From assembly GCA_965224245.1 (NCBI GenBank), contig OZ245046.1, forward strand, positions 3,712,001 through 3,776,000: 64,000 bases of DNA. Reading direction: 5' to 3'. The notes beneath the pieces are model-generated. The model made no database searches, was not told where the DNA came from, and saw nothing but the letters and a program-made list of their open reading frames with translations. Positions 15,738-29,742 of the stretch are shown one piece after another. The stretch comes from Candidatus Eiseniibacteriota bacterium (GTDB lineage Bacteria > Eisenbacteria > RBG-16-71-46 > CAZAMP01). Position 1 is the stretch's first letter, and the number at the start of each line of letters is the position of its first letter. Both the position numbers and the translations under genes were made by a program.

Positions 15738-17182
15738 CGATCCCTCCCGGATCGCTCGCGGACGTCGTCGCAGACCCGATCGGCTACCCGGAAGGCGTCC
15801 TTCACGCAGAGATTCATCGAGATGCCGCGCAGCCAGTTGCCCGTCAGCGAGAGCGTGGGTCGGCGCGCCTCCAGCGTGTCCACGGCCCCGACGACGTCGG
15901 GATGTCCGATGTCGTACTGGGGGATTCCCATGCGATGGCGGAAGACCCGGGTGAACACCGGATCGTCGCGCTCGCCGAGAATCGATTCGACGTCGGCGCG
16001 AACGCCCGCGAGGGTCTCTGCCTCGGACAGATCCGCCACCTCCGGATCGTGGGCGCCCCCGACCAGCGCGCGCACGAGCACGTGGTTCGCCGGGGCGCGA
16101 CCGGGAAAGAGGGTCGACGTGAAGAGCACGCCGAGCGTGCGGATCCCCTCGCTGCGCGGGATCAGCAGGCCGAAGCCGTCCAGCGGGTGGGCGAGGGCGT
16201 GTCGCGGGTAGCCGAGACACACCACCGAGATCGGTGCGGCCGTGATGCGTCCGAGCGCCGACGCCGCCTCGGCCTCCCACGGTGCGAGCCAGCGCGCCTG
16301 GGCCGGTGCCGGTGAGGCCATGACCACCGCGTCGGCGGGGACGACCTCGCCGTCGACACGAACGTCGAACGCCCGGTCCCCGTGCGGCGTCACGGACTCC
16401 ACGTCGACTCCGGTCTGGACCGCATCGCCGAGCGCATCGGCGAGCGTCCGGACCAGGGTCTCCATGCCACCCTCGAGGCTGTGAAGCACGCCGCCGGGCC
16501 CGGCGGGCCCACGGGCACCGGAGCCGTTTCCGGCCGCCGTGTCCGGAGCTTCCGTCCTGGCGGCGGCCTTTCGCTGCCGCTTCAACGCGATCATCGCCCG
16601 GAACAGCCCGCCGTGATCGCGCTCGAGCTCGACCATGCGCGGGAACGCCGCGCGCAGGCTCAGGCGATCGATGTCACCGGCGAAGATGCCGGAGACCATC
16701 GGATCCAGGAACGACGCCGTGAAGCCCCGACCGAGCCGGCGCCGCCCGAAGCTCGCCACCGTCTCGTCCTCGCCATCGCGCCTGGCGGGGACCATCGGCT
16801 CGGCCAGAACACGCGCCTTCGACAGCGGGCCGAGAAGCCCGGTGCGGAGGAACCCGGCCGGGGACTCGGGGAGTGCGTGGAGCGCGCCGCCGCGATGGAT
16901 GAAGCGACGCCGCGCGAGATCGTCGCTCCGCAGGAGCCGGGAGCCGAGACCGAGCATCTCGACGAGCTCCAGCATCCGGGGCTCGTTGTCGAGGAACCCG
17001 TTGGGTCCCCACTCACATCGGAAGCCGTCGGCCGCGTCGGTCCGGACGTGTCCGCCGGCCCGGTGGGCCTTCTCCAGCACGAGGACACGGCTGTCGGCCT
17101 CGGTTTCGGCCAGCCGGCGCCGGATCAGGTACGCGCACGCGAGGCCGCTGATGCCGCCACCGATGACGACGATCGTTCTCAT
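15719..17182 (-). CDS. hemY: FAD-dependent protoporphyrinogen/coproporphyrinogen oxidase (HemY/HemG family)
   Basis: VVIGGGISGL FAD motif, EWGPNGF, PMVSGIFAGD, GFGLLIP, IPQYDIGH; hem operon context. Confidence 0.9.
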   Translation of the reverse strand: MRTIVVIGGGISGLACAYLIRRRLAETEADSRVLVLEKAHRAGGHVRTDAADGFRCEWGPNGFLDNEPRMLELVEMLGLGSRLLRSDDLARRRFIHRGGALHALPESPAGFLRTGLLGPLSKARVLAEPMVPARRDGEDETVASFGRRRLGRGFTASFLDPMVSGIFAGDIDRLSLRAAFPRMVELERDHGGLFRAMIALKRQRKAAARTEAPDTAAGNGSGARGPAGPGGVLHSLEGGMETLVRTLADALGDAVQTGVDVESVTPHGDRAFDVRVDGEVVPADAVVMASPAPAQARWLAPWEAEAASALGRITAAPISVVCLGYPRHALAHPLDGFGLLIPRSEGIRTLGVLFTSTLFPGRAPANHVLVRALVGGAHDPEVADLSEAETLAGVRADVESILGERDDPVFTRVFRHRMGIPQYDIGHPDVVGAVDTLEARRPTLSLTGNWLRGISMNLCVKDAFRVADRVCDDVRERSGRDRCISCA

Positions 17183-18243
17183 GCGCCCACTCCCGATGCC
17201 GGGACCAGCTCGTCGGCCACCAGCGTGGCCAGGGCGCGAACGAAGCTCGGTCGCACGTTGAGACCCGGTGAGCGCTCGTACTCGGTGATCCCGAGCTCGT
17301 GCGCGACCTCCCGGTACTGCACGTCGAGCTCCTCGAGCGTCTCGATGTGATCGGACACGAAGCTCACCGGAACGACCACGACGCGGTGATGACCGTCCTT
17401 CGCGAGCGCCTCCAGCGCGCTCGGCGTCGACGGCGTGAGCCAGCGGACCGGGCCGGTGCGACTCTGGAACGCGAGGCGCCACTCACCCGTCCAGGCGAGC
17501 TCGGCGACCACCGCGCGCACCGTGCGCTTCACGTGTGCGAGGTACGGATCCCCCTCTTCGATGAACCGGACCGGCAGGCTGTGCGCGCTGAACAGGAGCA
17601 CGGGCTCCTCGCCCCCGGTCGCCATCGCACGCCCGATCGACTCCCGCACCGTCTCGGCCAGTGCCGCGACGTACGGCGGAAACGCCTCCCAGGACTTGAC
17701 CACGCGGAGGTCGAGGGTCGATCCGAGGCGGCGCGTCGCGTCGTCGAGCGCGTTCAGTGACGAGCCCGTCGTCGCCTTGGAGTACTGCGGGTACAGCGGC
17801 AGCACGACCGCCCGCTCGATGCCGTCGGCCATCATCGCCTCGATCGCCTCGTCCACGAACGGCTTCCAGTACCGCATGCCCACGTAGACGCGTGTGGACA
17901 CGCCGCGCTCGGCGAGGCAGTCCTCGAGCGCCTCGGCCTGATCGAACGTGAAGGTGAGCTGGGGCGAGCAGCCCCCCATCATCCGGTACCCCGGGGCCAC
18001 CTTCGGAGCGCGCGACCTCGCGATCAGCCGCGCGAGCAACATCTGGCTCCACGCCGGCATCGGAAACCGGATGATCTGCCGATCGGAGAAGAGATTCCGG
18101 AGGAACGGCCGGATCGACTCGATGCGATCGGGCCCCCCCATGTTCAGCAGCAGCACCCCCGTCGCGGACTCGCCGGGCGGGACGCTCGTGCGCCGCCTCG
18201 GCGCCCACTCGGTGATCTCGCGGGCCGGCGCGTGCGTGCTCAT
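17179..18243 (-). CDS. hemH: Ferrochelatase
   Basis: GVLLLNMGGP, MRYWKPF, PLYPQYS, LFSAHSLP, AFQSRTGPVRWL, FVSDHIETLEELD. Confidence 0.95.
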   Translation of the reverse strand: MSTHAPAREITEWAPRRRTSVPPGESATGVLLLNMGGPDRIESIRPFLRNLFSDRQIIRFPMPAWSQMLLARLIARSRAPKVAPGYRMMGGCSPQLTFTFDQAEALEDCLAERGVSTRVYVGMRYWKPFVDEAIEAMMADGIERAVVLPLYPQYSKATTGSSLNALDDATRRLGSTLDLRVVKSWEAFPPYVAALAETVRESIGRAMATGGEEPVLLFSAHSLPVRFIEEGDPYLAHVKRTVRAVVAELAWTGEWRLAFQSRTGPVRWLTPSTPSALEALAKDGHHRVVVVPVSFVSDHIETLEELDVQYREVAHELGITEYERSPGLNVRPSFVRALATLVADELVPASGVGA

Positions 18244-19634
18244 ATCGTCCTCGAGAAAATGGGCTTGTCGTCGGGTCGCGCCGTCAGGTAGCGATCGAAG
18301 AGCATGCAGAGGTTGCGCACGAACAGCCGGCCCCGCGGCGTGACCTCGAGCCGATCCGACCCGAGGGCGAAGAAGTCGGGGTCGATCGTGTCCCCCAGCT
18401 CCTCGAGCTCCGCGTCGAAGTACTCCAGGAAGTGGACGCCATGATGCTCGCGGATCGCGTCGAAGCGAACCTCGAAGTTGCACATCAGCTCGCGGATGAC
18501 CTCGGCGCGGACGAGATCGTCGTCGTCGAGCACATACCCCCGATGAACGGGCAGCTCGTCCCGATCGAGGCTCTCGTAGTAGCGCTTGAGCACGAGACCG
18601 TTCTGGGTGAAGGCGTTCTGGACGTAGCTGATGGACGAGATGCCGAACGCCAGCATGTCCTGGGCGGGGCGCGTCGTGTAGCCCATGAAGTTCCGGTGGA
18701 GCCGCTTCTCGCGCCGGGCCACGGCCAGCTCGTCCTCGGGCAGCGCGTAGTGGTCCATGCCGATCTGCTCGTACCCGGCGTCCACGAAGTCGCGAATCGT
18801 GTCGAGGTAGATCTGGAACTTGTCGTCCACCGACGGCAACGTCGCCTCGTCGATCCGGCGCTGATGGCCCTTGATCCACGGCACGTGCGCATAGCTGTAG
18901 ACGGCCAGACGGTCGGGGCGCATCTCGCGCACGATCTCGCGCGTGTACCGGAATGCCTCGGGGCTCTGGTTGGGCAGCCCGTAGATCAGATCGAAGTTGA
19001 CGCCGGTGAAACCGGCCTCGCGACACGCATCGTAGATCTCGCGGGTCACGTCCACCGTCTGCGGCCGGTTGACCGACGAGAGGACGGTCATGTCGAAGTC
19101 CTGCACGCCGAGCGAGACCCGGTTGAATCCGAGCCCGCGGAGCGTGGCGATGTGATCGCGCGTCGTCACCGTGGGGTCGATCTCGATCGAGAGCTCCGCT
19201 CCGTCGAGCATCGTGAAGCGTTCGCGGATCACGCCGCCCAGACGTTCGAGCTGCTCGGGGCTCAGAAACGTCGGCGTTCCCCCGCCGATGTGGAGCTGGA
19301 TCACGTTCCGGCGGGTACGGAGATCCCGCTGGACGAGATCCATCTCCCGGGCGAGTGCGTCGATGTAGCGATCGGCGGCCCCCTGGTGCTTGGTCACGAC
19401 CACGTTGCAGCCGCAGAACGTGCATCGCTCCTTGCAGAACGGCACGTGCACGTAGACCGACAGCGGCGCGTCGGGTCGCTCGTCGGCCGCGGCCAGGTGG
19501 CGGCGGTGGATCGCCTCCTCGAAATCGGGCTTCCATACCGGCGCCGTCGGATAGCTCGTATAGCGCGGTCCGGGCCGGTCGTAGCTACGGAGAAGCGCCG
19601 CGTCGACACCGTCCAGCCAGCTTCCGGTGCTCAT
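18240..19634 (-). CDS. hemN: Oxygen-independent coproporphyrinogen III oxidase (radical SAM)
   Basis: GPRYTSYPTA, YVHVPFCKERCTFCGC (CxxxCxxC), GGGTP, IGMDHY, LHRNFMGYTT; ends FSRTI. Confidence 0.95.
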   Translation of the reverse strand: MSTGSWLDGVDAALLRSYDRPGPRYTSYPTAPVWKPDFEEAIHRRHLAAADERPDAPLSVYVHVPFCKERCTFCGCNVVVTKHQGAADRYIDALAREMDLVQRDLRTRRNVIQLHIGGGTPTFLSPEQLERLGGVIRERFTMLDGAELSIEIDPTVTTRDHIATLRGLGFNRVSLGVQDFDMTVLSSVNRPQTVDVTREIYDACREAGFTGVNFDLIYGLPNQSPEAFRYTREIVREMRPDRLAVYSYAHVPWIKGHQRRIDEATLPSVDDKFQIYLDTIRDFVDAGYEQIGMDHYALPEDELAVARREKRLHRNFMGYTTRPAQDMLAFGISSISYVQNAFTQNGLVLKRYYESLDRDELPVHRGYVLDDDDLVRAEVIRELMCNFEVRFDAIREHHGVHFLEYFDAELEELGDTIDPDFFALGSDRLEVTPRGRLFVRNLCMLFDRYLTARPDDKPIFSRTI

Positions 19635-20722
19635 CCCTGCCTCCCTGCCACGAGGGGTGCGTTCCCGCGCTCGTAGGCCCGGACGCACGAAACCAGAACG
19701 CCGACGTTCTCGGGTGGAACGCCGGGCAGGATCCCGTGTCCGAGGTTGAACACGTAGCCGCCGCCGGTCGCCGCCCCTGCGTCGAGCGTCGCGCGCACGC
19801 GATCGCGGATCGTGTCGGGGTGGCCGAACAGGATCGTCGGATCCAGGTTTCCCTGGAGCGCCCGGCCCGGAAGGCGGCGGTGCGCGGCCGTCAGCGGCGT
19901 TCTCCAGTCCACGCCGACGACGTCGGCATCGATCTCGGCGATCACATCCAGAAGGTGCGACCCCCCGTTCACGAACAGGATCCCCGGCGCACCCTTGGCG
20001 CGCAGGCGCGAGAAGATGTCCGCCAGGTACGGGGCCGCGAACGTGCGGTAGTCCTCGGCCGAGAGCATGCCGCCCCAGCTGTCGAAGACCTGAAAGGCGG
20101 ATGCCCCCGCGTCGAGCTGGGCGCTCAGGTGCTCGACGATCATGTCGGCAAAGCGGCGGAACAGCGCATGCGCGAGATCGGGCTCGGAGAACATGAGACC
20201 CTTCAGCCGCGCGAACTGCTTCGACGAGCCGCCCTCGACCGCATAGCTGGCCAAAGTGAACGGGGCGCCGGTGAAGACGATCAGCGGCGTGCCGTCGAGT
20301 CGCCGAACCGCCAGCTCGACCGCGTCCGTCACGTAGGCCAGGTCGCGACGCGTGTCGACGCGACGCAGACGCTCGACGTCCGCCGCGGTCCGGACGGGGT
20401 TGGCGATCCTGGGTCCGCCCTCGGGATAGGCGACCTCGAGGCCCATCGCCTCCAGGGGAACCAGGATGTCGCTGAACAGGATCGCGGCATCGAACCCGAA
20501 CCGCCGGATCGGCTGGAGCGTCACCTCCACCGCCAGCTCCGGCGTCCGGCACATCTCCAGGAACGAGGCGCGCTCGCGAACGGCCCGATACTCGGGCAGG
20601 TAGCGCCCCGCCTGACGCATGAGCCACAGGGGGATGCGCTCGGTCGGCTCGTTGCGGCACGCCCTGAGGAACAGTGCGTTCACGTCGCCGTTCGCCTGGC
20701 GGTCGCCGGGTGTCGTGCTCAT
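19631..20722 (-). CDS. hemE: Uroporphyrinogen decarboxylase
   Basis: WLMRQAGRYLPEY, AILFSDIL, GAPFTLASY, QVFDSW, LQGNLDP, FNLGHG. Confidence 0.97.
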   Translation of the reverse strand: MSTTPGDRQANGDVNALFLRACRNEPTERIPLWLMRQAGRYLPEYRAVRERASFLEMCRTPELAVEVTLQPIRRFGFDAAILFSDILVPLEAMGLEVAYPEGGPRIANPVRTAADVERLRRVDTRRDLAYVTDAVELAVRRLDGTPLIVFTGAPFTLASYAVEGGSSKQFARLKGLMFSEPDLAHALFRRFADMIVEHLSAQLDAGASAFQVFDSWGGMLSAEDYRTFAAPYLADIFSRLRAKGAPGILFVNGGSHLLDVIAEIDADVVGVDWRTPLTAAHRRLPGRALQGNLDPTILFGHPDTIRDRVRATLDAGAATGGGYVFNLGHGILPGVPPENVGVLVSCVRAYERGNAPLVAGRQG

Positions 20723-22089
20723 CGCTCACCTCCGATCGCGGCCCCCGATGGACGTCCGTGCGCGATCGCGAGGGCCTCTCCGATGGCCGTCACCGTGCGG
20801 CGCAGCGTATCCGCGTCGTGCGCGGCGGAGATGAACCCGACCTCGTAGCCCGACGGCGCGAAGTAGATGCCCCGCTCGAGGAGCGCACCGTGGAATGCCG
20901 CGTACCGATCGATGCCGTCGGTCTGGATCTCGTGGAACGAGCGCGGCGCCGGCGCGGGCTGGAACGCGAGCCAGAAGATCGAGCCGGCCCGGACGAGCGT
21001 CACGGGCACGTTCAGGGTCACGATCGCGTCTCGCACGCCTCGCTCGAACGCCGCGCTCTTCTCCTCGAGCGCCTCGAAGAACCCGTCGCGGAGCACCTCC
21101 CGCAGCGCCGCGGTTCCGGCCGCCATCGCGACCGGGTTGCCCGAGAGCGTGCCCGCCTGATAGACCGGCCCCATCGGGGCCAGGAGCGCCATCAGGTCCG
21201 CTCGGCCGCCGAAGGCCGCCATCGGCATGCCGCCGCCGATGACCTTGCCGAACGTACGGAGATCGGGCTCGATCCCGTACAAACCGGCAGCGCCGGCGGG
21301 ACCCACGCGGAAGCCACTGATCACCTCGTCGAAGATCAGGAGCGCGCCCGCGTCGCGCGTCGAGCGGGCCAGGGTCGTGAGAAACTCGGGCCGCTGAAGC
21401 AGCAGCCCCGCGTTCGCCGGAATGGGCTCCACGATGACCGCGGCCACCTCGGCGCCCCGCTCGGCGAAGAGGCGCGCGACCGCGTCCTCGTCGTCGAGAG
21501 GAAGCACGATCGTCTGCCGCGTCATGTCGGCCGGGACACCCGAGGAGGACGGGGTCCCGAACGTCGCGAGCCCCGATCCGCCCTTCACGAGCAGGTGATC
21601 CACGTGTCCGTGGTAGCAGCCCTCGAACTTCACGATCAGATCGCGGCCGGTCGCCCCGCGCGCCAGGCGCACGGCCGACATCACGGCCTCGGTGCCGCTG
21701 TTGACGAACCGCACGCGTTCGAGCCCGGGCACCGCTCCGGTGACGAGTTCGGCCAGCTCGACCTCGCGCCGCGAGGGGGCGCCGAAGCTGAGCCCCTCGG
21801 CGGCCGCGGACGTCACCGCATTCACCACGGCCTCGTGCGCGTGCCCGAGGATCAGCGGGCCCCAGGAGCAGCAGTAATCGACGAAGGTGTTGCCGTCCTC
21901 GTCGACGAACGTCGCCCCTTTCGCCTCGCGGAAGAAGATGGGTGTTCCGCCGACCGCGCCGAACGCGCGGACCGGGGAGTTCACGCCACCGGGCATCAGC
22001 GCGCGAGCCCGGTCGATCAGCTCGCGCGAACGGTCCAGGGTCGGACCGCCCCGCTGCGAGCGCGCGGTGTCGGGGGTCTTCAGAGCCAT
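20719..22089 (-). CDS. hemL: Glutamate-1-semialdehyde 2,1-aminomutase
   Basis: PGGVNSPVRAF, SWGPLILGH, NSGTEAVM, FEGCYHGH, FDEV, FGKVIGGG, YQAGTLSGNP. Confidence 0.97.
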   Translation of the reverse strand: MALKTPDTARSQRGGPTLDRSRELIDRARALMPGGVNSPVRAFGAVGGTPIFFREAKGATFVDEDGNTFVDYCCSWGPLILGHAHEAVVNAVTSAAAEGLSFGAPSRREVELAELVTGAVPGLERVRFVNSGTEAVMSAVRLARGATGRDLIVKFEGCYHGHVDHLLVKGGSGLATFGTPSSSGVPADMTRQTIVLPLDDEDAVARLFAERGAEVAAVIVEPIPANAGLLLQRPEFLTTLARSTRDAGALLIFDEVISGFRVGPAGAAGLYGIEPDLRTFGKVIGGGMPMAAFGGRADLMALLAPMGPVYQAGTLSGNPVAMAAGTAALREVLRDGFFEALEEKSAAFERGVRDAIVTLNVPVTLVRAGSIFWLAFQPAPAPRSFHEIQTDGIDRYAAFHGALLERGIYFAPSGYEVGFISAAHDADTLRRTVTAIGEALAIAHGRPSGAAIGGER

Positions 22090-23075
22090 CGGTTCTCCAG
22101 TACGTCGCGTGCGTGATACGTGATCAAGATGTCCGCCCCGGCGCGGGCGATGGCCGTCAGGTTCTCGAGCACGATCGCGCGCTCGTCCGCGAGCCCCTCG
22201 CGGGCAGCCAGCTTCACCATCGAGTACTCGCCGCTGACGTTGTAGGCGGCCAGGGGAAGCGTCGTCGCGTCGCGCACCCTCCGGATGACGTCCAGGTAGG
22301 CGAGCGCCGGCTTGACCATCAGGATGTCCGCTCCCTCCTCCTCGTCGATCAGCGCCTCATGGAGCGCCTCGCGCGCATTGCGTGCGTCCATCTGATACGA
22401 GCGGCGATCGCCGGACGCCGGTGCGGAGTCGGCGGCGTCACGGAACGGGCCGTAGTACGCGGAGGCGTACTTGACCGCGTAGGACATGATCGCCGTGTTC
22501 GTGAACCCCTCCCGATCGAGCCCGGTCCGGATGGCGGCCACGCGCCCGTCCATCATGTCCGACGGCGCGACGACGTCGGCGCCTGCCCGTGCGTGTGAGA
22601 GCGCCATGTCCGCCAGAAGGGGCAGGGACGCGTCGTTGTCGATGACGCCGCCGTCGAGCACACCGCAGTGCCCGTGGTCGGTGTAGGCACACAGACACAC
22701 GTCGGTGGCAACCGTGACGTCGTCGCCGAAGCGGCTCTTCACCGCGGCGACGGCGCGGGAGACCAGCGCGTCCTCCTTCGTGGCGGCGCTCGCGACCGCG
22801 TCCTTGTGGTCGCTGAGACCGAACAGGAGCACGCGCCGGATGCCGCGTTCGAGGTCCCGTTCGACGGTCTCGAGAAGCGTGTCGGGGGTTTCCCGGTGAA
22901 TGCCGGGCATGCTCGGGATCGGCTGGCGATCCCCACCGCGACCGGGCGCGCCGTCGCGCACGAAGTGCGGCTGCATCATCTGGTCGGGATGGAGACGGGT
23001 CTCGGCGACCAGATCCCGGATGCGGGCGCTCGCGCGAAGCCGCCGCGGCCTCGCGATCAGTCCTTCGTCAAGCAT
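22080..23075 (-). CDS. hemB: Porphobilinogen synthase (ALA dehydratase), Zn-binding type
   Basis: RPRRLR, DVCLCAYTDHGHCG, APSDMMDGR, YGPFRDA, MVKPAL, AYNVSGEY. Confidence 0.97.
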   Translation of the reverse strand: MLDEGLIARPRRLRASARIRDLVAETRLHPDQMMQPHFVRDGAPGRGGDRQPIPSMPGIHRETPDTLLETVERDLERGIRRVLLFGLSDHKDAVASAATKEDALVSRAVAAVKSRFGDDVTVATDVCLCAYTDHGHCGVLDGGVIDNDASLPLLADMALSHARAGADVVAPSDMMDGRVAAIRTGLDREGFTNTAIMSYAVKYASAYYGPFRDAADSAPASGDRRSYQMDARNAREALHEALIDEEEGADILMVKPALAYLDVIRRVRDATTLPLAAYNVSGEYSMVKLAAREGLADERAIVLENLTAIARAGADILITYHARDVLENRWL

Positions 23076-24715
23076 GCGATGAGACCTTCCATCGTGTGGC
23101 GTGTCGCCTCGGTGAACACATCCACCGAGCGCGCACGGGCCTCGGCCGAGGTGACCGGTCCGATCGTGACGACGCGGGCACCGGCGGGAACGTCCGTGAC
23201 GTCCGTGAAGTGGCGGACCGCCGACGGCGACGCGAAGAGGACGTAGTCCGCGCCGGCGAGCGCCTCCACGTCCAGCGTGGACGGGTCGGTGGCTCGCGTC
23301 CGATAGACCGGCAGCGTGACCACGTCGTGGCCCGCCGTGGCCAGTCCATCGGCCAGCACCGTGCGTCCCTCACGCGCGGACGGGATGAGCACGCGATACC
23401 GCCCGGTTCCGTTCTGCGAGAGCATCGCGTCGAGGAGCGCGTCCGAGATCGCCTGGGCCGGCACGAGGTCGGGCTCACGCCCCAGCTCCCGGAGGGCGGC
23501 CGCGGTCCCGGGACCGACGACGCCGATCCTGGCGCCCTCGGGCAGTGTCCGCCGCGCTCGTGCGAGTCGCTCACCGAGCTGCCGGACGGCGTTCGCACTC
23601 GGAAACAGGATCCAGTCGTAGGCGTCGAGCTCGGCCAGCGTGGATGCCTCGAGATCGGGATCGGAGTCGGGGACGATCTCGAGCACCGGGAAAGATACGA
23701 CGACGGCACCCTGCGCCTCGAGACCCGCGATCAGAGGATCCTCGTCGGCAGCCTCGCGCGTCACGACGACGCGCTTGCCGGCGAGGTTCCGACCGGGACC
23801 GACAGACGCGGCGCGGATGCGCTCGTGGGCATGTCGCGCGAGAGCCAAGGAGTCACGAGCGCTCGCGCGAACGCGCACCGCATGGGTGCCGTCGTCGTGG
23901 GAGTGATAAACCATGATCGTGTGGCGATCGGAGTCGTCGGGATCGGTCAGGATGTGCGCACCGAGAGGAAGCGAGCATCCGCCGCCGAACATGCCCAGGA
24001 GCGAGCGCTCCGCGTCGACGACAGCCGCCACGCCGGCATCGTGCAGCATCGCGACCGGCCCCACCACCCGGTCGTCGCCTGCCCGCACCTGAACCGCGAG
24101 CGCCCCCTGACCCGGGGCGGGAACGAACACGTCGACGTCCAGCGGCACCGCGATCAGGCCCCCGAGATCCAGCTCCAGGCGCGATACGCCGGCCTGGGCG
24201 ATCAGGATGGCGTCGTGCGCGCCCTCGCGGAGGCGACGCACGCGCGTGGGCACGTTGCCGCGGAGCGACTCCACCGCGAGATCGGGGCGGAGGTTCAGAA
24301 GCTGTGCGCGACGCCTCACCGAGCTCGTGCCGACCCGTGCGCCGGGCGCCAGCGGCAGCGGCGCCATCTTCGGATCGTGGTGCGCCTCGGCCACGAGCAG
24401 GAGGTCACGCGGGTCGGCGCGCTCCGGAACCGCGGCGATCGCGAGGTCCGGTGGCATCTCGGTCGGAAGGTCCTTCAGCGAGTGCACGGCGATGTCGATG
24501 CGCCGTTCGCGCAGCGCCTGCTCGAGCTCGGCGGTGAAGAACCCCTTCCCCTCGATCTCGATGAAGGGACGGTCGTCGATCCGGTCGCCCTGGGTGCGGA
24601 TGATGTCGATGCGCGACTCCATCGCCGCGCGCTCGCGCAGGAGCGACTGAACGTGGCGGGCCTGCCACAGGGCGAGGTCGCTCCCGCGACTTCCGATGAC
24701 GAGGGGAGTGTTCAC
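23057..24715 (-). CDS. hemC: Fused hydroxymethylbilane synthase / uroporphyrinogen-III synthase (HemC-HemD)
   Basis: N-terminal half: IGSRGSDLALWQ, VHSLKDLP, GTSSVRR, RGNVPTR, GGGCSLPLG. C-terminal half: LAGKRVVVTR, FPSANAV, VGPGTA, VYRT, FASPSAV, IGPVT. One continuous frame with a GTG start. Confidence 0.92.
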   Translation of the reverse strand: MNTPLVIGSRGSDLALWQARHVQSLLRERAAMESRIDIIRTQGDRIDDRPFIEIEGKGFFTAELEQALRERRIDIAVHSLKDLPTEMPPDLAIAAVPERADPRDLLLVAEAHHDPKMAPLPLAPGARVGTSSVRRRAQLLNLRPDLAVESLRGNVPTRVRRLREGAHDAILIAQAGVSRLELDLGGLIAVPLDVDVFVPAPGQGALAVQVRAGDDRVVGPVAMLHDAGVAAVVDAERSLLGMFGGGCSLPLGAHILTDPDDSDRHTIMVYHSHDDGTHAVRVRASARDSLALARHAHERIRAASVGPGRNLAGKRVVVTREAADEDPLIAGLEAQGAVVVSFPVLEIVPDSDPDLEASTLAELDAYDWILFPSANAVRQLGERLARARRTLPEGARIGVVGPGTAAALRELGREPDLVPAQAISDALLDAMLSQNGTGRYRVLIPSAREGRTVLADGLATAGHDVVTLPVYRTRATDPSTLDVEALAGADYVLFASPSAVRHFTDVTDVPAGARVVTIGPVTSAEARARSVDVFTEATRHTMEGLIACLTKD

Positions 24716-24737
24716 GACGTGCCACCGATTCTTCCAG

Positions 24738-25847
24738 CTAGAGCATGCCTGCCGCGACGGGGTCGACGCAGAGCACGTCGACGAGCCGGCGGCTCATGGC
24801 TGCCGGATACGTGACCACCGCCTCCGCGACCGCCCGCTCGGCGGCGTCGACGGCCACGACGGCTTTCTCGGAGTTGCTGCGCGACTCCTCGCGCAGATCG
24901 TCGATCGTGACCACGCGCACGTCCGGCAGATCGTCCAGGTCGGGGTCGGTGTCGCGCGGCGCGGCCAGGTCGACCACCAGCAACCGATCGGGGTCGCCGG
25001 CGCGCGCGGTCCCGAGCCGCGGCGCAGGACGCGGCGCATCGAGGAGCGGCGCCAGCGACGACCGATCGAGGATCGCATGCGGCGCGGAGGTAGCCGTCAC
25101 GATCACGTCCGTGGGCGGGGGATCGGCGAGGAACGCCTCGAGCGACATCACGCGAGCGCCGTGACGCTCGGCGGTCGCGCGGATCTTGGCCGGCGTGCGA
25201 TTCACGAGACGGAGGTTCGTGTAGCCGCGGCCCGAAAGGAACATCGCGATCTTCGAGCTCATCTCGCCGCTGCCGATGATCGCGATCGCCGAATCGCTCG
25301 CGCGGTGGCCGGCGGTCACGACGCCCACGGCGAGCGTCGCCATCGAGACGGAGCCGGCTCCGAGCGAGGTCTTCCGGCGCACGTCGCGCGCGCAGCGGAA
25401 GGTCTCCTCGAAGATGCACTCGAGCCACGAGCAGGCGATGCCGGCGGCATGCGACGCGTGGTAGGCCCGCTTCACCTGTCCGAGGATCTGCGCCTCGCCC
25501 ACGACCATCGAGTCGAGCGAGCAGGCCACCCGGAAGAGGTGGCGCACCGCGGCGTCCCCCCGGTGCACGTGGAACGCGCGGCGCCACGTCGGATCGGGCA
25601 GGACGCCCCGCAGCCGTGCGAAGTAGCCGAAGACGCGCCCGAGCAGCTCGCTGTCGGGCGTGTGACGGGTGTCGGCGACGACGAACTCCACCCGGTTGCA
25701 GGTCGGCACGTACACGAGCTCGTCCACACCCAGCGCGCGGTGGAGGTCCCGGAGGCTCCCCGGGTCTTCGGACGGCAGATGAAACACGTCGCGAAGCGCC
25801 CCGTCACTCTCTCTAAAGCTAGTCCCGACAACCACATACCGTTCCAT
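24738..25847 (-). CDS. hemA: Glutamyl-tRNA reductase (short form)
   Basis: TCNRVE catalytic motif, SLDSMVVGEAQILGQVK, IIGSGEM, NRT, DLAAPRD. ATG at 25847 after GGAGG. Confidence 0.92.
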   Translation of the reverse strand: MERYVVVGTSFRESDGALRDVFHLPSEDPGSLRDLHRALGVDELVYVPTCNRVEFVVADTRHTPDSELLGRVFGYFARLRGVLPDPTWRRAFHVHRGDAAVRHLFRVACSLDSMVVGEAQILGQVKRAYHASHAAGIACSWLECIFEETFRCARDVRRKTSLGAGSVSMATLAVGVVTAGHRASDSAIAIIGSGEMSSKIAMFLSGRGYTNLRLVNRTPAKIRATAERHGARVMSLEAFLADPPPTDVIVTATSAPHAILDRSSLAPLLDAPRPAPRLGTARAGDPDRLLVVDLAAPRDTDPDLDDLPDVRVVTIDDLREESRSNSEKAVVAVDAAERAVAEAVVTYPAAMSRRLVDVLCVDPVAAGML

Positions 25848-25887
25848 CACCGACCTCCGACGCTCGATGTCTCTTCCGCAGCAGGAG

Positions 25888-25931
25888 AGTCTATGAGGGC
25901 GGCGGTGTCGAGTTGTCATGCAGTTGTCATG
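25888..25931 (-). promoter_or_regulatory. Putative hem-operon promoter: -10 TAGACT plus a tandem 10-bp direct repeat with 11-bp period
   Basis: AGTTGTCATG at 25911-25920 and 25922-25931. AGTCTA at 25888-25893 reads TAGACT on the minus strand. Confidence 0.5.
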
Positions 25932-25995
25932 ACGGAGGTAGGTGGTTTCCGAGACGTCTCCGTGTGATGATCCGCGCTCGCTGGAGGGAGACACG

Positions 25996-27378
25996 ATGCG
26001 ACCGATCCGCCCCATCACGACCTGGATCTTGCCGGCCGCGATCGCGCTGGCCCCGGTGACTGACGCCATGGCCCGGGACGCCGGGGCCGCCGACCTGACC
26101 GAAGGCGGCTCGACCACCGGCGAGGCCGCGGCGTCGGCGTTCGCGTCGGCGTTCTTCCGGGGCGATCGCGTCGCGTTCGCGGACCGGCTCTCGGAGGACA
26201 TGTCCGACGCGCTCGACGATGCACAGTACCGATCGCTCCTGGCGTCGCTCGCGGACCAGCTCGGCGCGCTGGAGTCGATCGGCGCGCCCTGGCCGGAGTC
26301 CGACGTGCAGGGCTTCCAGCGCTATCGGATCCCCCTGGCCTTCGCCGCCGACACGCTGGACATGCGCCTCGTCTTCGACGGCGCCGGCGACGTGGCGGGC
26401 CTCTTCTTCGTCCCCCATCTCGCGCGGCCGAGCGGCCCCGAGCCGGAAGCACCGGTGCGCGAGGAGGACGTGATCATCGGCGGCGATCCGGAGACCGGCC
26501 TCGGCGGAACGCTGTCGTTGCCCGACGGCCCCGGTCCGTTTCCGGCCCTGGTGCTCGTGCACGGATCGGGGCCGAACGACCGGGACGAGACGATCGGGCC
26601 CAACAAACCGTTTCGGGACCTCGCCTGGGGGCTCGCCACACGCGGCGTCGCCGTCTTGCGCTACGACAAGCGATCGTACGCGAGGCCCGAGACGCTGCAG
26701 CCGCTGGGCACCTCCCTGACCGTGGCCGAGGAGGTGATCGACGACGCGCTCGACGCGGTGCGCGTCGTCAGCGCGACCCCGGGGATCGACGCGACGCGTG
26801 TGTTCCTGTGCGGACACAGCCTCGGTGGCACGCTGGCCCACCGGATCGCCGCGACGGACGGCGTGATCGCCGGCGTCATCGTGCTCGCCGGGGCCACGCT
26901 TCCCCTGCCCGAGAAGATCGTCGAACAGACCTGGTACATCGCCAACGTCGACGGCGTCGTGACCGAGCACGAGCAGCGGAGCTACGACGCAACCCGGCAG
27001 GCCGCCGAGACGATCCGCCGCGCGCTGGACGGCGAGATCCCCGAGCCCGAGGGGCCGCTCCTGGGCGCCCCGGTCGGCTACTACCGGGATCTGGGCGCAC
27101 ACGACCCGGTCGATCTCGCCTGGCGTCTCCGACTGCCGACGCTCGTGTTGCAGGGCGATCGGGACTATCAGGTGACGCTGGCCGACTTCTCGCGCTGGGA
27201 GGAGCTCCGGGGCGAGGCGTTCGCATGCCTCGTCCGGTATCCGGATCTCGACCACCTGTTCCACGCCGGCGAAGGACCGTCGCAGCCCATCGACTACGAG
27301 CGCCCCGCCCCCGTCGATGCCCGCGTGATCGACGACATGGCCGCGTGGATCGAACAGGGGACCTGCCGGTCCCGCTGA
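25996..27378 (+). CDS. Secreted alpha/beta hydrolase with N-terminal DUF3887-like domain
   Basis: GGAGGGAG RBS and signal peptide; VHGSGPNDRDET, LRYDKR, nucleophile GHSLGG, QGDRDYQV, HLF. Confidence 0.88.
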   Translation: MRPIRPITTWILPAAIALAPVTDAMARDAGAADLTEGGSTTGEAAASAFASAFFRGDRVAFADRLSEDMSDALDDAQYRSLLASLADQLGALESIGAPWPESDVQGFQRYRIPLAFAADTLDMRLVFDGAGDVAGLFFVPHLARPSGPEPEAPVREEDVIIGGDPETGLGGTLSLPDGPGPFPALVLVHGSGPNDRDETIGPNKPFRDLAWGLATRGVAVLRYDKRSYARPETLQPLGTSLTVAEEVIDDALDAVRVVSATPGIDATRVFLCGHSLGGTLAHRIAATDGVIAGVIVLAGATLPLPEKIVEQTWYIANVDGVVTEHEQRSYDATRQAAETIRRALDGEIPEPEGPLLGAPVGYYRDLGAHDPVDLAWRLRLPTLVLQGDRDYQVTLADFSRWEELRGEAFACLVRYPDLDHLFHAGEGPSQPIDYERPAPVDARVIDDMAAWIEQGTCRSR

Positions 27379-27713: not shown

Positions 27714-27728
27714 GCGGTCGCGCGGGCC

Positions 27729-28007
27729 ATGGACCTCATCCAGAGTCGTCGCGGCCGCGCGTTCCTTCTCGCGCTCCTCTACTTCGCCGAGGGCGCACCC
27801 ATCGGGTGGCTCTGGTGGGCGCTTCCCACGCGACTTCGGGCCGCGGGGGCGCCGCTGGACGAGGTCAACGGGATCGCGACCGGGCTCGGCGGCGACGTCG
27901 GTCCGGAGTCCTACGCCGGGGCGTGGCTCGTCCTGGCGGGTGTGGCGCTCCTGGGACTGATCGCGCCGCCGCGGACCCGCCCCCCGTCCGAGCCCCTACC
28001 GAGGTGA
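27729..28007 (+). pseudogene. Internally deleted AmpG-like MFS transporter remnant
   Basis: Starts like AmpG-family TM1 (LLYFAEGAPIGWLWWALPTRLRAAG) but jumps to a terminal-looking helix (SYAGAWLVLAGVALLGL). It is only 92 aa. Confidence 0.55.
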
Positions 28008-29138
28008 CGGCACCTCGCCGGGCGCGCGGGCCCCGGAGTTCCGGTGGCACCACATGCAGGCGCGCCCGAAGCCGTGGTCGGCGCCCTCGCTGTAGTGGCA
28101 CTTGACGCACAGCGCGCGCTGGTCGGGATGCGGGTACGGACTCGGAATCGGATATGACCCCGAGGCCGCGCCGTCGTCGGCGAGGAATCGCACGTTGGGA
28201 TCCCATCGGGTGGCGGCCGGCCCGCTGGAGGCGTGCGCCCGGTGGCAGGTCAGGCAGGTCAGTCGACTCGTCGACGACGCTCCGGTCGTGCCCGACACGG
28301 TGGCTCCGGGATCCTCCAGCGCGACCTCGGGGATGTAGGCGGTCGCGGCGTCTCCCCCGCCGGGATCGGTGGGGCCGGCGTAGGCGTTGTACGCGTCACG
28401 CACCGCGGAGCCCAGCAGCGCCGAGACCGGATGTTCGAACCCTCCGCCGCCTTCACGGTGAACGCTCGCATGACAGTTCCCGCACCAGTCGCTGACGCCG
28501 CGCCGGTAGGCCGTGTGGTTCGTCGGGGACTCTCGATCGGCGTACAGGTCGATGCCGATCGCATCGGGCGCCCCGGCGGTGAAGGCGAACCCCGAGGCGT
28601 CGGTGGAGCCGGCATCGCGCAGCATCCGGAACCGGGGGTTGCCGTGAGGGTCGTGACAGCTCGTGCACGTCAGGTCGGCGGACGCGTAGGTTCCTCCCGG
28701 GGCCGTCGCATGCCGGGGATCGACCGGGATCCCCCAGCTCGCGCTGGCCACGTTGTGGCCGGCATGACTTCCGTCGATCGGCGAGAGGCCGCCACCGATC
28801 CCGTCGTTCAGGTTGTCCTCGTAGAGAAACGTGAAGTTGCCCGCGCCGCGCTCCAGAGGAGGAGCGGTGGGATCGACACCGAGCACCGCACCGTTCTCGG
28901 TGGCGTGACAGGCGAGACAGACGTCCGTGCTGGTTGCGTGACGCAGCAGGAACGGGGCGCCGAAGGGGTCGTCGGGATCGACCGGAAGGCCGTCCTCGCT
29001 CCCGTGCATCGTATGACAGCCCGCACAGCTGGCTACCCCGCCGTCGTGAAACGCGGAGACGGGCCCCGACGGGAGACCCGCGAGAACGACGGCCGATAGC
29101 GCGCCCGCGAGCCGTGTCGTCATGCCACGGGATCTCAT
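27996..29138 (-). CDS. Secreted multiheme c-type cytochrome, OmcS-like, with 7 CxxCH motifs
   Basis: Signal peptide, then FHDGGVASCAGCHTMH. Motifs CAGCH, CLACH, CTSCH, CGNCH, CLTCH, CVKCH, CMWCH. Alternative start at 29123. Confidence 0.88.
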   Translation of the reverse strand: MRSRGMTTRLAGALSAVVLAGLPSGPVSAFHDGGVASCAGCHTMHGSEDGLPVDPDDPFGAPFLLRHATSTDVCLACHATENGAVLGVDPTAPPLERGAGNFTFLYEDNLNDGIGGGLSPIDGSHAGHNVASASWGIPVDPRHATAPGGTYASADLTCTSCHDPHGNPRFRMLRDAGSTDASGFAFTAGAPDAIGIDLYADRESPTNHTAYRRGVSDWCGNCHASVHREGGGGFEHPVSALLGSAVRDAYNAYAGPTDPGGGDAATAYIPEVALEDPGATVSGTTGASSTSRLTCLTCHRAHASSGPAATRWDPNVRFLADDGAASGSYPIPSPYPHPDQRALCVKCHYSEGADHGFGRACMWCHRNSGARAPGEVPSPR

Positions 29139-29169: not shown

Positions 29170-29742
29170 TCAGCCGGTGCTCCCGGTCGACCCGGCGCGG
29201 CGAACGACCGATTCGAGGCGTCCGGCGAGCGTGTCCTCGCTCGGTCCCGACGTCAGGAGGAGCACGAGCGACACCATGGCGAACGGTACGACCACCATGA
29301 ACGCGTAGGTGATGAACACGAGCACGAGTCCGATCACGGAGACCAGCTCCTGGACGGCCCACACGATCACGAACGACTGCTGCAGCCGTGCCAGCGCGCT
29401 GACCATCGGGCGGGCGACCTCGGACACGCCGGTGAGATCCGCTCTCTTCGGCGGGCTCGACACCGCGGCAATCAGTGCCTCGTCGTCGGTGAGACGGCTC
29501 CGGAGCCGTATCGAAACCACCGCCAGCACGGCCGCGGCCGCCAGCCCGATCCCCAGCATGCTCGTCGGCGAAAGCGGAAGCCCGGCGGCGATCTCCTCGC
29601 GGCGCTCCGGCGAGACGTTCATCGTGACCAGGTAGGCCACCAGCGTGTACAGCAGCGGCGCGGACGAGAACGCCAGCCAGATCGTGCGAAGCGCCCTGAA
29701 CCGTGGTGAGAAGACGTCCCTCAGCTCTTCGGCCAGTGTCAT
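29170..29742 (-). CDS. Hypothetical membrane protein (about 4 TM)
   Basis: 190-aa ORF with four hydrophobic segments, ending 31 nt upstream of the cytochrome start on the same strand. Confidence 0.6.
   Translation of the reverse strand: MTLAEELRDVFSPRFRALRTIWLAFSSAPLLYTLVAYLVTMNVSPERREEIAAGLPLSPTSMLGIGLAAAAVLAVVSIRLRSRLTDDEALIAAVSSPPKRADLTGVSEVARPMVSALARLQQSFVIVWAVQELVSVIGLVLVFITYAFMVVVPFAMVSLVLLLTSGPSEDTLAGRLESVVRRAGSTGSTG

What the first reader, a model, noticed from the sequence alone, without database searches (positions are those of the whole stretch)
27996..29138. OmcS-type nanowire cytochrome homolog in an apparently non-Geobacter organism
Seen: after a signal peptide the mature protein starts FHDGGVASCAGCHTMH and continues GHNV...TAPGGTY...LTCTSCHDPHG...SDWCGNCH...EHP...CLTCHRAHAS...QRALCVKCH. 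Knowledge, from my recollection of Geobacter sulfurreducens OmcS: it starts FHSGGVAECEGCHTMH and has GHNI...TAPGGTY...CSSCHDPHG...SEWCANCH...RHP...CLSCHRAHAS...QRALCNKCH, and its His16 coordinates a heme of the neighbouring subunit in the filament. All six heme motifs, the candidate distal histidines and His16 are present here in the same order. Inference: this organism, which looks like an FCB-related candidate-phylum bacterium, may make a polymerising conductive cytochrome filament for extracellular electron transfer.
Basis: partly seen in the sequence, partly recalled or inferred. Interest (0 to 1): 0.88.

Follow-up and report, generated by a model that had tools for sequence, protein, structure and literature searches.

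The report
Seven-heme OmcS-like cytochrome in Eisenbacteria
This gene encodes a secreted cytochrome clearly related to the Geobacter "nanowire" protein OmcS, but it carries a seventh heme site at its tail and sits apart from the genes that usually accompany such wires, so whether it forms a conductive filament is still open.

Summary
It is a true OmcS homologue. OmcS (6EF8) is the only significant solved-structure match by sequence (E 1.6e-32; family profile 7.5e-55, aligned end to end). It is also the only fold match (TM 0.68/0.64; model pLDDT 88.5).

The host is Candidatus Eisenbacteria, so it is not Geobacter.

Three points change the reading:
- The protein has seven CxxCH motifs, not six. 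A 32-residue tail with a conserved His-Gly and a seventh CxxCH follows exactly where OmcS ends.
- OmcS-family genes are already reported in many phyla, including FCB-type candidate phyla.
- The His16 equivalent is kept in 145 of 148 family members, so it does not single out wire formers.

Most six-heme relatives, in both the Geobacter-type and the FCB/Acidobacteriota-type clade, lie beside a conserved block (NHL propeller, CsgG-like lipoprotein, SurA-like isomerase, 26-heme and 16-heme cytochromes). A paper links this block to nanowire maturation. The seven-heme variants, including this one, do not. The 64-kb window holds no other cytochrome c.

Verdict: a new heptaheme variant of a known family. 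It is an electron-transfer protein, and polymerisation is plausible but not shown.

The parts
27996..29138 (-). Gene for a 380-aa heptaheme OmcS-family c-type cytochrome (stop codon included). A second in-frame ATG lies at 29123.
   Evidence: sequence; OmcS the only significant PDB match; model pLDDT 88.5; TM 0.68/0.64 to 6ef8_A
29052..29138 (-). Residues 1-29: Sec-type signal peptide (basic N-terminus, hydrophobic core, ...VSA before Phe30). There is no lipobox Cys.
   Evidence: Read from the sequence. Phe30 aligns with residue 1 of the mature OmcS chain. The cleavage site is inferred, not predicted by a tool.
29004..29051 (-). Residues 30-45, FHDGGVASCAGCHTMH: the mature N-terminal arm with heme-1 motif (C38-H42), His31 and His45 (the equivalents of OmcS His2 and His16).
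   Evidence: Conservation: His45 is His in 60/60 seven-heme, 46/46 six-heme clade-A and 39/42 clade-B sequences.
28905..28919 (-). Heme motif 2, CLACH (residues 74-78)
   Evidence: invariant in 148 sequences
28653..28667 (-). Heme motif 3, CTSCH (residues 158-162), followed by the invariant DPHG His165
28470..28484 (-). Heme motif 4, CGNCH (residues 219-223), followed by conserved His227 and His236
28242..28256 (-). Heme motif 5, CLTCH (residues 295-299), followed by invariant His302. In OmcS the corresponding heme takes one axial His from the neighbouring subunit.
   Evidence: PMC6584659 (passage read)
28095..28109 (-). Heme motif 6, CVKCH (residues 344-348). OmcS ends three residues after the equivalent His.
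   Evidence: OmcS 394-407 aligned to the end of the 407-residue chain
27999..28094 (-). Residues 349-380: C-terminal extension absent from OmcS. It holds the conserved His355-Gly356 and heme motif 7, CMWCH (residues 361-365; nt 28044-28058), then a low-confidence tail.
   Evidence: Consensus C-x-K-C-H-[YW]-x-[ED]-A-x-D-H-G-x-G-x-[PA]-C-[ML]-x-C-H-R in 60 seven-heme sequences. pLDDT 93 for residues 351-360, 75 for 361-370, 43 for 371-380.
29170..29742 (-). 190-aa ORF that reads as a membrane protein, 31 nt upstream on the same strand. It may be co-transcribed. No family was found, and it is not conserved next to homologues.
   Evidence: GC3 0.89; no Pfam hit; no blastp hit among ORFs of the 80 loci; only unnamed clusters in the atlas
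15719..26201 (-). Context, not part of the protein: heme biosynthesis operon on the same strand, 1.8 kb downstream (hemA, hemC/D fusion, hemB, hemL, hemE, hemN-like, hemY-like).
   Evidence: A similar neighbourhood in L002: hemA-hemB-hemL-HK-RR-heptaheme-ccsA-resB.

Best explanation
The gene encodes a Sec-exported c-type cytochrome with the OmcS fold that binds seven hemes, all probably bis-histidine ligated. It therefore acts only as an electron-transfer wire, not as an enzyme.

It belongs to a coherent heptaheme subclade of the FCB/Acidobacteriota branch of the OmcS family. In this subclade a short module (helix, His-Gly, CxxCH) has been added directly after heme 6, at the point where OmcS ends. 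In the OmcS filament that point lies at the junction between subunits.

My preferred mechanism is as follows. The protein still associates head to tail like OmcS, with His45 of one subunit completing the coordination of heme 5 of the next. It would then be a candidate subunit of a heptaheme filament or short oligomer, with heme 7 either in line at the junction or branching from it.

Unlike most six-heme relatives, it is encoded alone, next to heme biosynthesis genes, and away from the block linked to nanowire maturation and secretion.

Shown: homology, fold, seven motifs, the conserved histidines, the clade, the gene context and the host phylum. Inferred: heme occupancy, the axial ligands, self-association, the location outside the cytoplasm and the physiological role.
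For: Homology and fold:
- OmcS is the only significant PDB match by sequence (E 1.6e-32, profile E 7.5e-55, aligned from OmcS residue 1 to 407).
- OmcS is the only fold match (6ef8_A E 7.2e-19, TM 0.68/0.64; the next hit has E 3.8). The model has pLDDT 88.5 and pTM 0.85.

Hemes and ligands:
- There are seven CxxCH motifs.
- Non-motif histidines are conserved across 148 sequences: His128, 165, 236 and 302 are invariant, and His31 and His45 are at least 90% conserved. His208 is conserved in clade A (104/106), and His355 in 54/60 seven-heme sequences. That gives enough candidates for seven distal ligands.

Geometric argument for trans coordination (inference):
- In OmcS the hemes stack along the fibre in motif order, the subunit repeat is about 4.8 nm, and one ligand of heme 5 comes from the neighbouring molecule (PMC6584659, passages read).
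- His45 lies three residues after the heme-1 proximal His, so it cannot reach heme 5 of its own chain.
- Its retention in 60/60 seven-heme sequences therefore argues that the contact in trans is still in use.
- The mature N-terminal arm has lower model confidence (pLDDT 69-80 for residues 31-60) than the core (above 89) in the monomer model. This fits a segment that packs on a partner.

Clade:
- In the FastTree of 224 sequences the window lies in a 65-leaf clade (support 99) holding 52 seven-motif and 2 eight-motif proteins.
- In the IQ-TREE of 81 rows, built without the tail columns, 28 of 31 seven-heme rows form one clade (SH-aLRT 94) and the trait needs 2 changes.
Against: - No self-association has been demonstrated.
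- The block of NHL propeller, CsgG-like lipoprotein, SurA-like isomerase, 26-heme and 16-heme cytochromes is absent from all five other loci whose OmcS-like gene has seven CxxCH motifs (L002, L011, L012, L029, L030; L029 carries its extra motif elsewhere and falls in the other clade). It gives no tblastn hit (E <= 1e-3) in the 64-kb window. It accompanies 10 of 12 six-heme clade-A loci that have at least 7 kb on both sides, against 0 of 3 seven-heme loci so flanked (window, L002, L011).
- The window holds no other CxxCH ORF and no Ccs/Ccm gene. The porin-cytochrome conduit check rests on this absence of a second cytochrome; a beta-barrel domain hit (OMP_b-brl) lies at 51539-53656 with no cytochrome beside it.
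- The extra heme module sits where the next subunit docks in OmcS, so it could block elongation.
- Only OmcS among the four G. sulfurreducens paralogues is known to form a wire (PMC12977616, section 6).
- His45 is conserved across the whole family, so it cannot by itself distinguish wire formers.
- That the trans ligand in OmcS is His16 is recalled (Wang et al. 2019, not held in the library). It was not seen in any paper I read.
Confidence: 0.45

Rival explanations
1. A non-polymerising paralogue: a soluble periplasmic or cell-surface heptaheme electron carrier. It shares the OmcS fold but works as a monomer or small oligomer, shuttling electrons between respiratory complexes and other acceptors. 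The added heme 7 would serve as its docking or exit site.
For: - The gene stands alone. None of the block genes is in the window or in the other seven-heme loci, and there is no second cytochrome in 64 kb.
- Its neighbours are housekeeping-type heme biosynthesis or cytochrome maturation genes: the window, L002 with ccsA/resB, and L030 with a Redoxin ORF directly downstream.
- The signal peptide has no lipobox or sorting domain.
- The C-terminal module lies at the OmcS subunit junction.
Against: - His45 is retained in 60/60 seven-heme sequences, although by OmcS geometry it cannot ligate a heme of its own chain other than near heme 1. That retention is unexplained for a monomer.
- The OmcS fold has no known non-filament example among solved structures.
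- The gene context rests on few loci: the window plus five.
Confidence: 0.4
2. An accessory subunit of a filament built mainly from a six-heme paralogue encoded elsewhere in the 6.45-Mb genome. It would add head to tail through its N-terminal arm, but its C-terminal heme-7 module would end the chain or form the electron entry or exit port (a cap or adaptor).
For: - The N-terminal arm and His45 are conserved, while the C-terminal junction face is altered.
- Six-heme clade-A genes occur in Eisenbacteria (L016).
- Many genomes hold several family paralogues.
Against: - No six-heme paralogue of this genome was seen. Only 64 kb of it is available.
- There is no precedent for cytochrome filament caps in the papers read.
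- None of the seven-heme genes in the loci seen lies next to a six-heme gene.
Confidence: 0.08
3. A catalytic multiheme enzyme (for example a reductase of nitrogen or sulfur oxyanions), or a pseudogene.
For: There are weak sub-threshold matches to NrfB/NrfH/DmsE-type models.
Against: - All those matches are far below the curated cut-offs and cover only CxxCH stretches.
- There is no CxxCK or other open-site motif, and enough conserved histidines exist for bis-His ligation of all hemes.
- The frame is intact with GC3 0.83, and close full-length relatives are numerous.
Confidence: 0.04

Closest known systems
OmcS of Geobacter sulfurreducens (PDB 6EF8/6NEF), the hexaheme nanowire subunit
   Same: - Same fold (TM 0.68/0.64).
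- Alignable from mature residue 1 to the last residue.
- Six CxxCH motifs in the same order.
- Same mature N-terminus, F-H-x-G-G-V-A-x-C-x-G-C-H-T-M-H, including the His2 and His16 equivalents.
- Conserved GHN, DPHG, HP and RAHA histidines.
   Different: - About 27% identity in the structural alignment, and a different major clade (split support 100).
- A seventh heme module on a 32-residue C-terminal extension; OmcS ends 3 residues after heme 6's His.
- His208 is conserved here but is Arg in OmcS.
- It is not encoded beside the block of accessory genes.
- The host is Eisenbacteria.
- Filament formation is not shown.
GSU2501-type OmcS-like hexahemes with the downstream eight-gene block GSU2500-GSU2493 (PMC12977616, section 6)
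   Same: - Same family.
- The FCB/Acidobacteriota six-heme relatives nearest to this protein sit directly upstream of an equivalent block: 699-aa protein, CsgG-like, 379-aa protein, SurA-like PPIase, 26-heme and 16-heme.
   Different: - The window's gene has seven hemes and no block nearby.
- That the loci blocks equal GSU2500-2493 is inferred from the 26-heme protein (named as GSU2495 in that paper) and the gene order. It was not tested against G. sulfurreducens sequence, which was not among the 80 loci.
OmcS homologues called by FeGenie in MAGs of Krumholzibacteria, Zixibacteria, Eisenbacteria and others (10.1101/2020.09.22.307553; PMC8478452)
   Same: - Same kind of organisms and the same family-level annotation.
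- The window's relatives come from exactly these phyla.
   Different: The passages I read in those reports do not give heme number, clade or gene context. They infer iron reduction from the HMM hit alone.
OmcZ of G. sulfurreducens (octaheme nanowire with a branching, solvent-exposed heme)
   Same: This is a functional analogy only: if heme 7 branches from the main chain at each junction, the wire would be 'leaky' in the sense used for OmcZ (PMC13712944, introduction passages).
   Different: There is no sequence or fold relation (no OmcZ hit). In OmcZ all hemes are ligated within the subunit (PMC9473688, passage).

Membership tests
OmcS family of multiheme c-type cytochromes (OmcS/OmcT/OmcJ/GSU2501-like) | Significant sequence similarity to OmcS over the full length, not only at the CxxCH motifs | tested here: met
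   E 1.6e-32; query 30-325 against OmcS 1-358; profile E 7.5e-55; OmcS 1-407 covered in three stretches
OmcS family of multiheme c-type cytochromes (OmcS/OmcT/OmcJ/GSU2501-like) | OmcS fold | tested here: met
   pLDDT 88.5; 6ef8_A TM 0.68/0.64, E 7.2e-19; no other hit below E 1
OmcS family of multiheme c-type cytochromes (OmcS/OmcT/OmcJ/GSU2501-like) | Six CxxCH motifs in conserved order and spacing, with conserved distal histidines | tested here: met
   The six motifs plus His128, 165, 236 and 302 are invariant in 148 sequences. Axial ligation itself is inferred.
OmcS family of multiheme c-type cytochromes (OmcS/OmcT/OmcJ/GSU2501-like) | Exactly six hemes (hexaheme) | tested here: not met
   Seven CxxCH motifs. 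The seventh is shared by 60 of 148 aligned sequences.
OmcS-type cytochrome nanowire (polymerising filament subunit) | A histidine on the N-terminal arm that can ligate heme 5 of the next subunit (His16 in OmcS; the number is recalled) | tested here: met
   His45 aligns with OmcS His16. It is not discriminating: it is His in 145/148 family members.
OmcS-type cytochrome nanowire (polymerising filament subunit) | Head-to-tail homopolymer with a continuous heme chain | not testable with these tools
   This needs a structure of the assembled holo-protein. No coordinates of models are available here.
OmcS-type cytochrome nanowire (polymerising filament subunit) | C-terminus ends at heme 6, leaving the junction face free for heme 1 of the next subunit | tested here: not met
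   32 further residues with a heme-7 module
OmcS-type cytochrome nanowire (polymerising filament subunit) | Linked accessory block (GSU2500-2493 type) connected with nanowire maturation and secretion | tested here: not met
   No tblastn hit of any block protein in the 64-kb window and no other CxxCH ORF. The rest of the genome was not available, so absence from the genome is not shown.
OmcS-type cytochrome nanowire (polymerising filament subunit) | Extracellular location and conductivity | not testable with these tools
   Only a Sec-type signal peptide can be read from the sequence.

The most novel reading that the evidence does not exclude
The heptaheme clade forms a new type of cytochrome nanowire. 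It would be an OmcS-fold filament in which each subunit junction carries an extra heme, either lengthening the repeat to seven in-line hemes or exposing a side heme every ~5 nm as a lateral electron port. It would assemble without the Geobacter-type accessory block, in soil and sediment bacteria of the FCB-related candidate phyla (Eisenbacteria, Krumholzibacteria and relatives).
Probability: 0.25. Interest if true: 0.8.

Novelty: new variant of a known kind. Interest (0 to 1): 0.5.

Why it matters
Cytochrome nanowires have been solved for only a few proteins, and the field lacks criteria for telling which homologues in metagenomes make wires.

This finding does not add a new family. It does mark a well-populated heptaheme branch of the OmcS family in poorly known soil and sediment phyla. 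That branch keeps the N-terminal arm and its histidine, changes the subunit-junction end, and has left the conserved accessory block.

This makes it a natural test case for two open questions. Is the arm histidine enough for polymerisation? Is the accessory block needed?

It is also a caution. HMM-based calls of 'OmcS, iron reduction' in such genomes lump together at least three things: block-associated hexahemes, orphan hexahemes and orphan heptahemes.

Tried and rejected
- Homodimer prediction. The tool gave 'no answer' (ipSAE 0.00 in both runs; mark 0.42; controls not folded). It is no evidence either way.
- The listing of cluster members, for names of seven-heme relatives: the database was switched off and the query was not made.
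- Pfam and NCBIfam give only the generic doubled-CXXCH domain above cut-off. Neither library returned an OmcS-specific family.
- The upstream 190-aa ORF has no Pfam hit, no homologue beside relatives and only unnamed atlas clusters. I dropped it as a partner.
- A blastp hit between the PD40 part of the neighbouring kinase and the S9 peptidases next to the L011/L012 genes (E about 5e-6) is a generic beta-propeller match. I rejected it as conserved synteny.
- The two short ORFs between 27378 and 27996 have no Pfam hit at E <= 1. My impression that they are gene remnants is unsupported.
- No promoter-like or terminator-like site was found in 27300-30300.
- Literature:
  - No paper holds OmcS with 'His16' and 'filament'.
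  - None of the listings for 'His 16/H16/histidine 16' concerned this residue.
  - The search for OmcS with heptaheme/seven heme/7-heme found 12 papers, 9 listed. I judged them by title and abstract start, plus passages of PMC7399161, and none concerns a seven-heme OmcS relative.
  - Wang et al. 2019 could not be read.
- I considered using the last protein search to look for block genes on the window's own contig. I did not run it, because the chance of catching one genome among the best 120 rows is small.
Full report
**1. What is there**

The ORF at 27996..29138 on the minus strand encodes 380 residues. Its codon usage is that of a real gene in this 70% G+C window (GC3 0.83; composition). The N-terminus looks like a Sec signal peptide ending in ...GPVSA, and Phe30 aligns with residue 1 of the mature OmcS chain.

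The seventh, CMWCH at residues 361-365, lies in a 32-residue C-terminal extension.

**2. Is it an OmcS homologue?**

Yes, over the whole length.
- With the single sequence, OmcS (6EF8/6NEF) is the only PDB sequence matched up to E 10, at E 1.6e-32.
- With a profile of 30 relatives the E-value is 7.5e-55. The alignment runs from OmcS residue 1 to its last residue, 407.
- An AlphaFold2 model built on a 148-sequence alignment has mean pLDDT 88.5 and pTM 0.85.
- Foldseek against the PDB finds 6ef8_A at E 7.2e-19 with TM 0.68/0.64, and nothing else below E 1.
- Pfam and NCBIfam return only the generic doubled-CXXCH domain above cut-off.

**3. Host**

The window's Mfd has 120 listed relatives. 15 of them carry an organism name, and 14 of those are Candidatus Eisenbacteria/Eiseniibacteriota at 60-65% identity. 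Unnamed relatives reach 81%. The window's own Mfd is recorded on a contig of 6,451,234 bp.

Several window proteins end in FlgD_ig/T9SS-type sorting domains. The named nearest relatives of the cytochrome are from Eisenbacteria (3), Calditrichaeota (1) and an unclassified bacterium (1). The host is not Geobacterales.

**4. The family and the place of this protein in it**

The family is large.
- 1,980 proteins reach E <= 1e-5 among the 8,000 candidates scored. The best 120 are 48-65% identical.
- 694 clusters at 50% identity reach E <= 1e-3, 304 reach 1e-10 and 54 reach 1e-30.
- In species-representative genomes, 180 stretches encode a relative and the best 80 were fetched. L001-L030 (38-58% identical) come from Zixibacteria, Krumholzibacteriota, Eisenbacteria, Acidobacteriota/Thermoanaerobaculia, Ignavibacteria, Fibrobacterota, Gemmatimonas and unclassified MAGs. 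L031-L080 (28-37%) come from Desulfuromonadales, Geobacter/Geomonas, Nitrospirota, Anaeromyxobacteraceae and others. The atlas look-alikes name the same phyla.

Trees separate two major clades.
- One is a Geobacter/Desulfuromonadales/Nitrospirota type. The other is an FCB/Acidobacteriota type.
- FastTree on 224 rows gives support 100 for the split. IQ-TREE quick on 81 rows gives SH-aLRT 100.
- The window's protein lies in the second clade, inside a 65-leaf group (support 99). That group holds 52 seven-motif, 2 eight-motif, 10 six-motif and 1 five-motif proteins. I suspect truncation for several of the six-motif ones, because six-motif proteins of 306-326 aa are among the hits.

The seventh motif is a clade trait.
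- Of P0001 and its 120 nearest clusters, 57 have seven or more motifs. In 55 of those the last two motifs start 13-19 residues apart, and in 44 the spacing is exactly 17.
- In the IQ-TREE, built on residues 30-350 only so that the tail could not drive the result, 28 of 31 seven-heme rows form one clade (SH-aLRT 94). Three more (P0113, L011, L012) form a second clade (92). The trait needs two changes.
- At 50% clustering this branch collapses to very few representatives: 1 of 98 full-length representatives shows the tail motif.

**5. The tail**

OmcS ends ...QRALCNKCHAKD, three residues after the heme-6 histidine. Here 32 more residues follow.

In 60 seven-heme sequences the consensus is C-x-K-C-H-[YW]-x-[ED]-A-x-D-H-G-x-G-x-[PA]-C-[ML]-x-C-H-R. 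His355 is present in 54/60 and Gly356 in 52/60.

The model places two short helices there, at residues 345-355 and 361-365. The pLDDT is 93 for residues 351-360 and 75 for 361-370, and the last ten residues are disordered.

With only 12 residues between the heme-6 histidine and the next Cys, heme 7 must sit next to heme 6. This is an inference; weak c3/c7-type Pfam matches cover exactly this pair.

In the OmcS fibre, heme 6 lies at the narrow inter-subunit interface and is solvent-exposed edge-on (PMC6584659, passages read). The new heme is therefore at or beside the subunit junction.

**6. Histidines**

Across 148 sequences, the six motifs and His128, 165, 236 and 302 are invariant. His31 and His45 are at least 90% conserved.

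| Residue | Seven-heme | Six-heme clade A | Clade B |
|---|---|---|---|
| His45 | 60/60 | 46/46 | 39/42 |
| His208 | 58/60 | 46/46 | Arg in 26/42 (OmcS has Arg here) |
| His227 | 56/60 | 43/46 | 26/42 (the alignment is uncertain there) |

With His355 there are nine conserved non-motif histidines for seven distal positions, so bis-His ligation of all seven hemes is feasible. There is no sign of an open catalytic site.

In OmcS all twelve axial ligands are histidines, eleven from the same subunit and one, on heme 5, from the neighbour (PMC6584659). That this one is His16 is recalled from Wang et al. 2019, which I could not read. My searches for the residue found nothing relevant.

**7. Gene context**

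In many loci of both clades the six-heme gene lies in a conserved block. In L007 this runs NHL propeller, OmcS-like gene, a 699-aa protein, a CsgG-like lipoprotein, a 379-aa protein, a SurA-like PPIase, a 26-heme cytochrome and a 16-heme cytochrome (L007 8721-19929).

Blastp finds these proteins in the following numbers of the 80 loci:

| Block protein | Loci with a hit (of 80) |
|---|---|
| NHL propeller | 42 |
| 699-aa protein | 21 |
| CsgG-like lipoprotein | 42 |
| 379-aa protein | 29 |
| SurA-like PPIase | 22 |
| 26-heme cytochrome | 34 |
| 16-heme cytochrome | 33 |

A 2026 paper describes an eight-gene block GSU2500-GSU2493 downstream of the OmcS-like GSU2501. [quoted passage not shown] I infer that the blocks are the same. 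G. sulfurreducens itself was not among the loci, and I did not identify the cited primary source.

None of these proteins has a tblastn hit (E <= 1e-3) in the 64-kb window. The window holds no other ORF with a CxxCH motif. None of the five other seven-motif loci (L002, L011, L012, L029, L030) appears in any of the block lists. Of these five, L029 carries its extra motif elsewhere and falls in the other clade.

Counts for clade-A loci:
- With at least 7 kb on both sides, the block is present in 10 of 12 six-heme loci (absent from L003 and L016). It is present in 0 of 3 seven-heme loci (window, L002, L011). Fisher p = 0.022.
- Adding shorter loci gives 15 of 17 against 0 of 5, p = 0.0008. These are L004, L005, L010, L021 and L022 counted as present, and L012 and L030 counted as absent.
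- I left out L009, L014 and L020, and the basal group L023-L027 and L029. The count is rough and the loci are not independent.

What the seven-heme genes do sit next to varies.
- In the window, a complete heme biosynthesis operon lies on the same strand 1.8 kb downstream.
- In L002 the order is hemA-hemB-hemL, a two-component pair, the heptaheme gene, then ccsA and resB.
- In L030 a Redoxin-family ORF follows directly.
- In L011 and L012 the neighbours are an S9 peptidase and, in L012, a pseudopilin-like ORF.

Three of three members of the main seven-heme clade with known context thus lie beside heme or cytochrome c biogenesis-type genes. Three is too few to build on.

**8. How it most likely works**

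Shown: an exported protein of OmcS fold with seven heme-attachment sites and conserved histidines.

Inferred: it binds seven low-spin hemes forming one closely packed chain, and it only transfers electrons.

The open question is quaternary structure. I lean slightly towards retained head-to-tail association, for a geometric reason.
- In OmcS the hemes are stacked along the fibre in motif order, over a 4.8-nm subunit (PMC6584659).
- A histidine three residues after the heme-1 ligand therefore cannot reach heme 5 of its own chain.
- Yet this histidine is kept in 60 of 60 seven-heme proteins and in 145 of 148 family members.
- The N-terminal arm is also the least confident part of the mature monomer model.

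Against this stand four points: the loss of the accessory block, the altered junction end, the lack of any other extracellular electron transfer gene in 64 kb, and the fact that paralogues of OmcS are not known to form wires.

| Reading | Probability |
|---|---|
| Self-associating, candidate heptaheme filament | about 0.45 |
| Non-polymerising carrier | about 0.40 |
| Cap or adaptor on a six-heme filament | about 0.08 |

**9. What is known and what is new**

OmcS homologues outside Geobacter are in print.
- Homologues in Geoalkalibacter and Anaeromyxobacter (PMC10954620, passages). That paper searched RefSeq only, and its Fig. 9 and supplements, which may list more taxa, were not visible to me.
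- Homologues 'in diverse species' (PMC12954529, passage).
- OmcS genes called by FeGenie in Krumholzibacteria (10.1101/2020.09.22.307553, passages), and in a study listing Eisenbacteria among iron-cycling taxa (PMC8478452, passages).
- A Coriobacteriales homologue (PMC7399161, passages).

I found no paper describing a seven-heme OmcS relative. The search found 12 papers, of which 9 were listed. I judged them by title and abstract start, plus passages of PMC7399161. I also found no paper on the split between block-associated and orphan family members outside Geobacter. These searches cover only the held open-access library.

**10. Verdict**

This is a new heptaheme variant of a known family, worth a structural test but not evidence of a nanowire.

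Noticed in passing
L007 8721-19929; also L001, L006, L008, L010, L013, L015, L017-L019, L028 and many clade-B loci: A conserved block accompanies six-heme OmcS-like genes across phyla, from Zixibacteria, Krumholzibacteriota and Acidobacteriota to Geobacter/Geomonas and Nitrospirota. Its order is NHL propeller, hexaheme, 699-aa protein, CsgG-like lipoprotein, 379-aa protein, SurA-like PPIase, 26-heme and 16-heme cytochromes. This wide phyletic spread of the whole block may itself deserve a study.
   Followed up: partly
L002 4439-14374: A seven-heme OmcS-like gene lies between heme biosynthesis genes (hemA, hemB, hemL), a histidine kinase/response regulator pair, and the System II cytochrome c maturation genes ccsA and resB. 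All are on one strand.
   Followed up: partly
window 15719-26201 (-): A complete heme biosynthesis operon: hemA, a hemC/hemD fusion (552 aa), hemB, hemL, hemE, a radical-SAM HemN-like gene (18243-19628) and a HemY-like amine oxidase.
   Followed up: partly
L052 6796-16521: A Nitrospirota MAG carries five OmcS-like hexaheme genes of about 430-445 aa on one strand (four nearly contiguous, the fifth about 2.2 kb further on). A 10-heme gene lies upstream (4070-5272).
   Followed up: no
L025 5358-8483: An ORF of 1041 aa with 42 CxxCH motifs lies upstream of two OmcS-like genes.
   Followed up: no
window 29645-32701 (+) and 32605-33300 (+): A Ser/Thr protein kinase fused to a PD40/TolB-like beta-propeller is followed by an ECF sigma factor. 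Both are divergent from the cytochrome gene. A regulatory link to the cytochrome was not examined.
   Followed up: no
window 27378-27996: About 600 bp between the alpha/beta hydrolase gene and the cytochrome gene have no convincing gene. Two short ORFs (27441-27710 and 27729-28007, the latter overlapping the cytochrome's stop) have no Pfam hit.
   Followed up: partly
window 5485-7455, 10896-13247, 35232-37787: Large secreted proteins (beta-helix, LVIVD repeats, CarboxypepD_reg) end in a FlgD_ig-type C-terminal domain. This fits a T9SS-like sorting signal typical of FCB-related phyla.
   Followed up: no
window 55933-60180 (+): The maximal Mfd ORF is 1415 aa, but the database copy of the same protein is 1159 aa. 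The real start is probably about 256 codons downstream. That copy is recorded on a contig of 6,451,234 bp.
   Followed up: no
L030 11108-11608; L012 3393-4157: Directly downstream of the seven-heme gene, L030 has a Redoxin/AhpC-TSA family ORF (possibly a ResA/TlpA-like thiol-disulfide oxidoreductase). L012 has an ORF with an N-terminal methylation motif and a T2SS-G-like domain (a pseudopilin).
   Followed up: no
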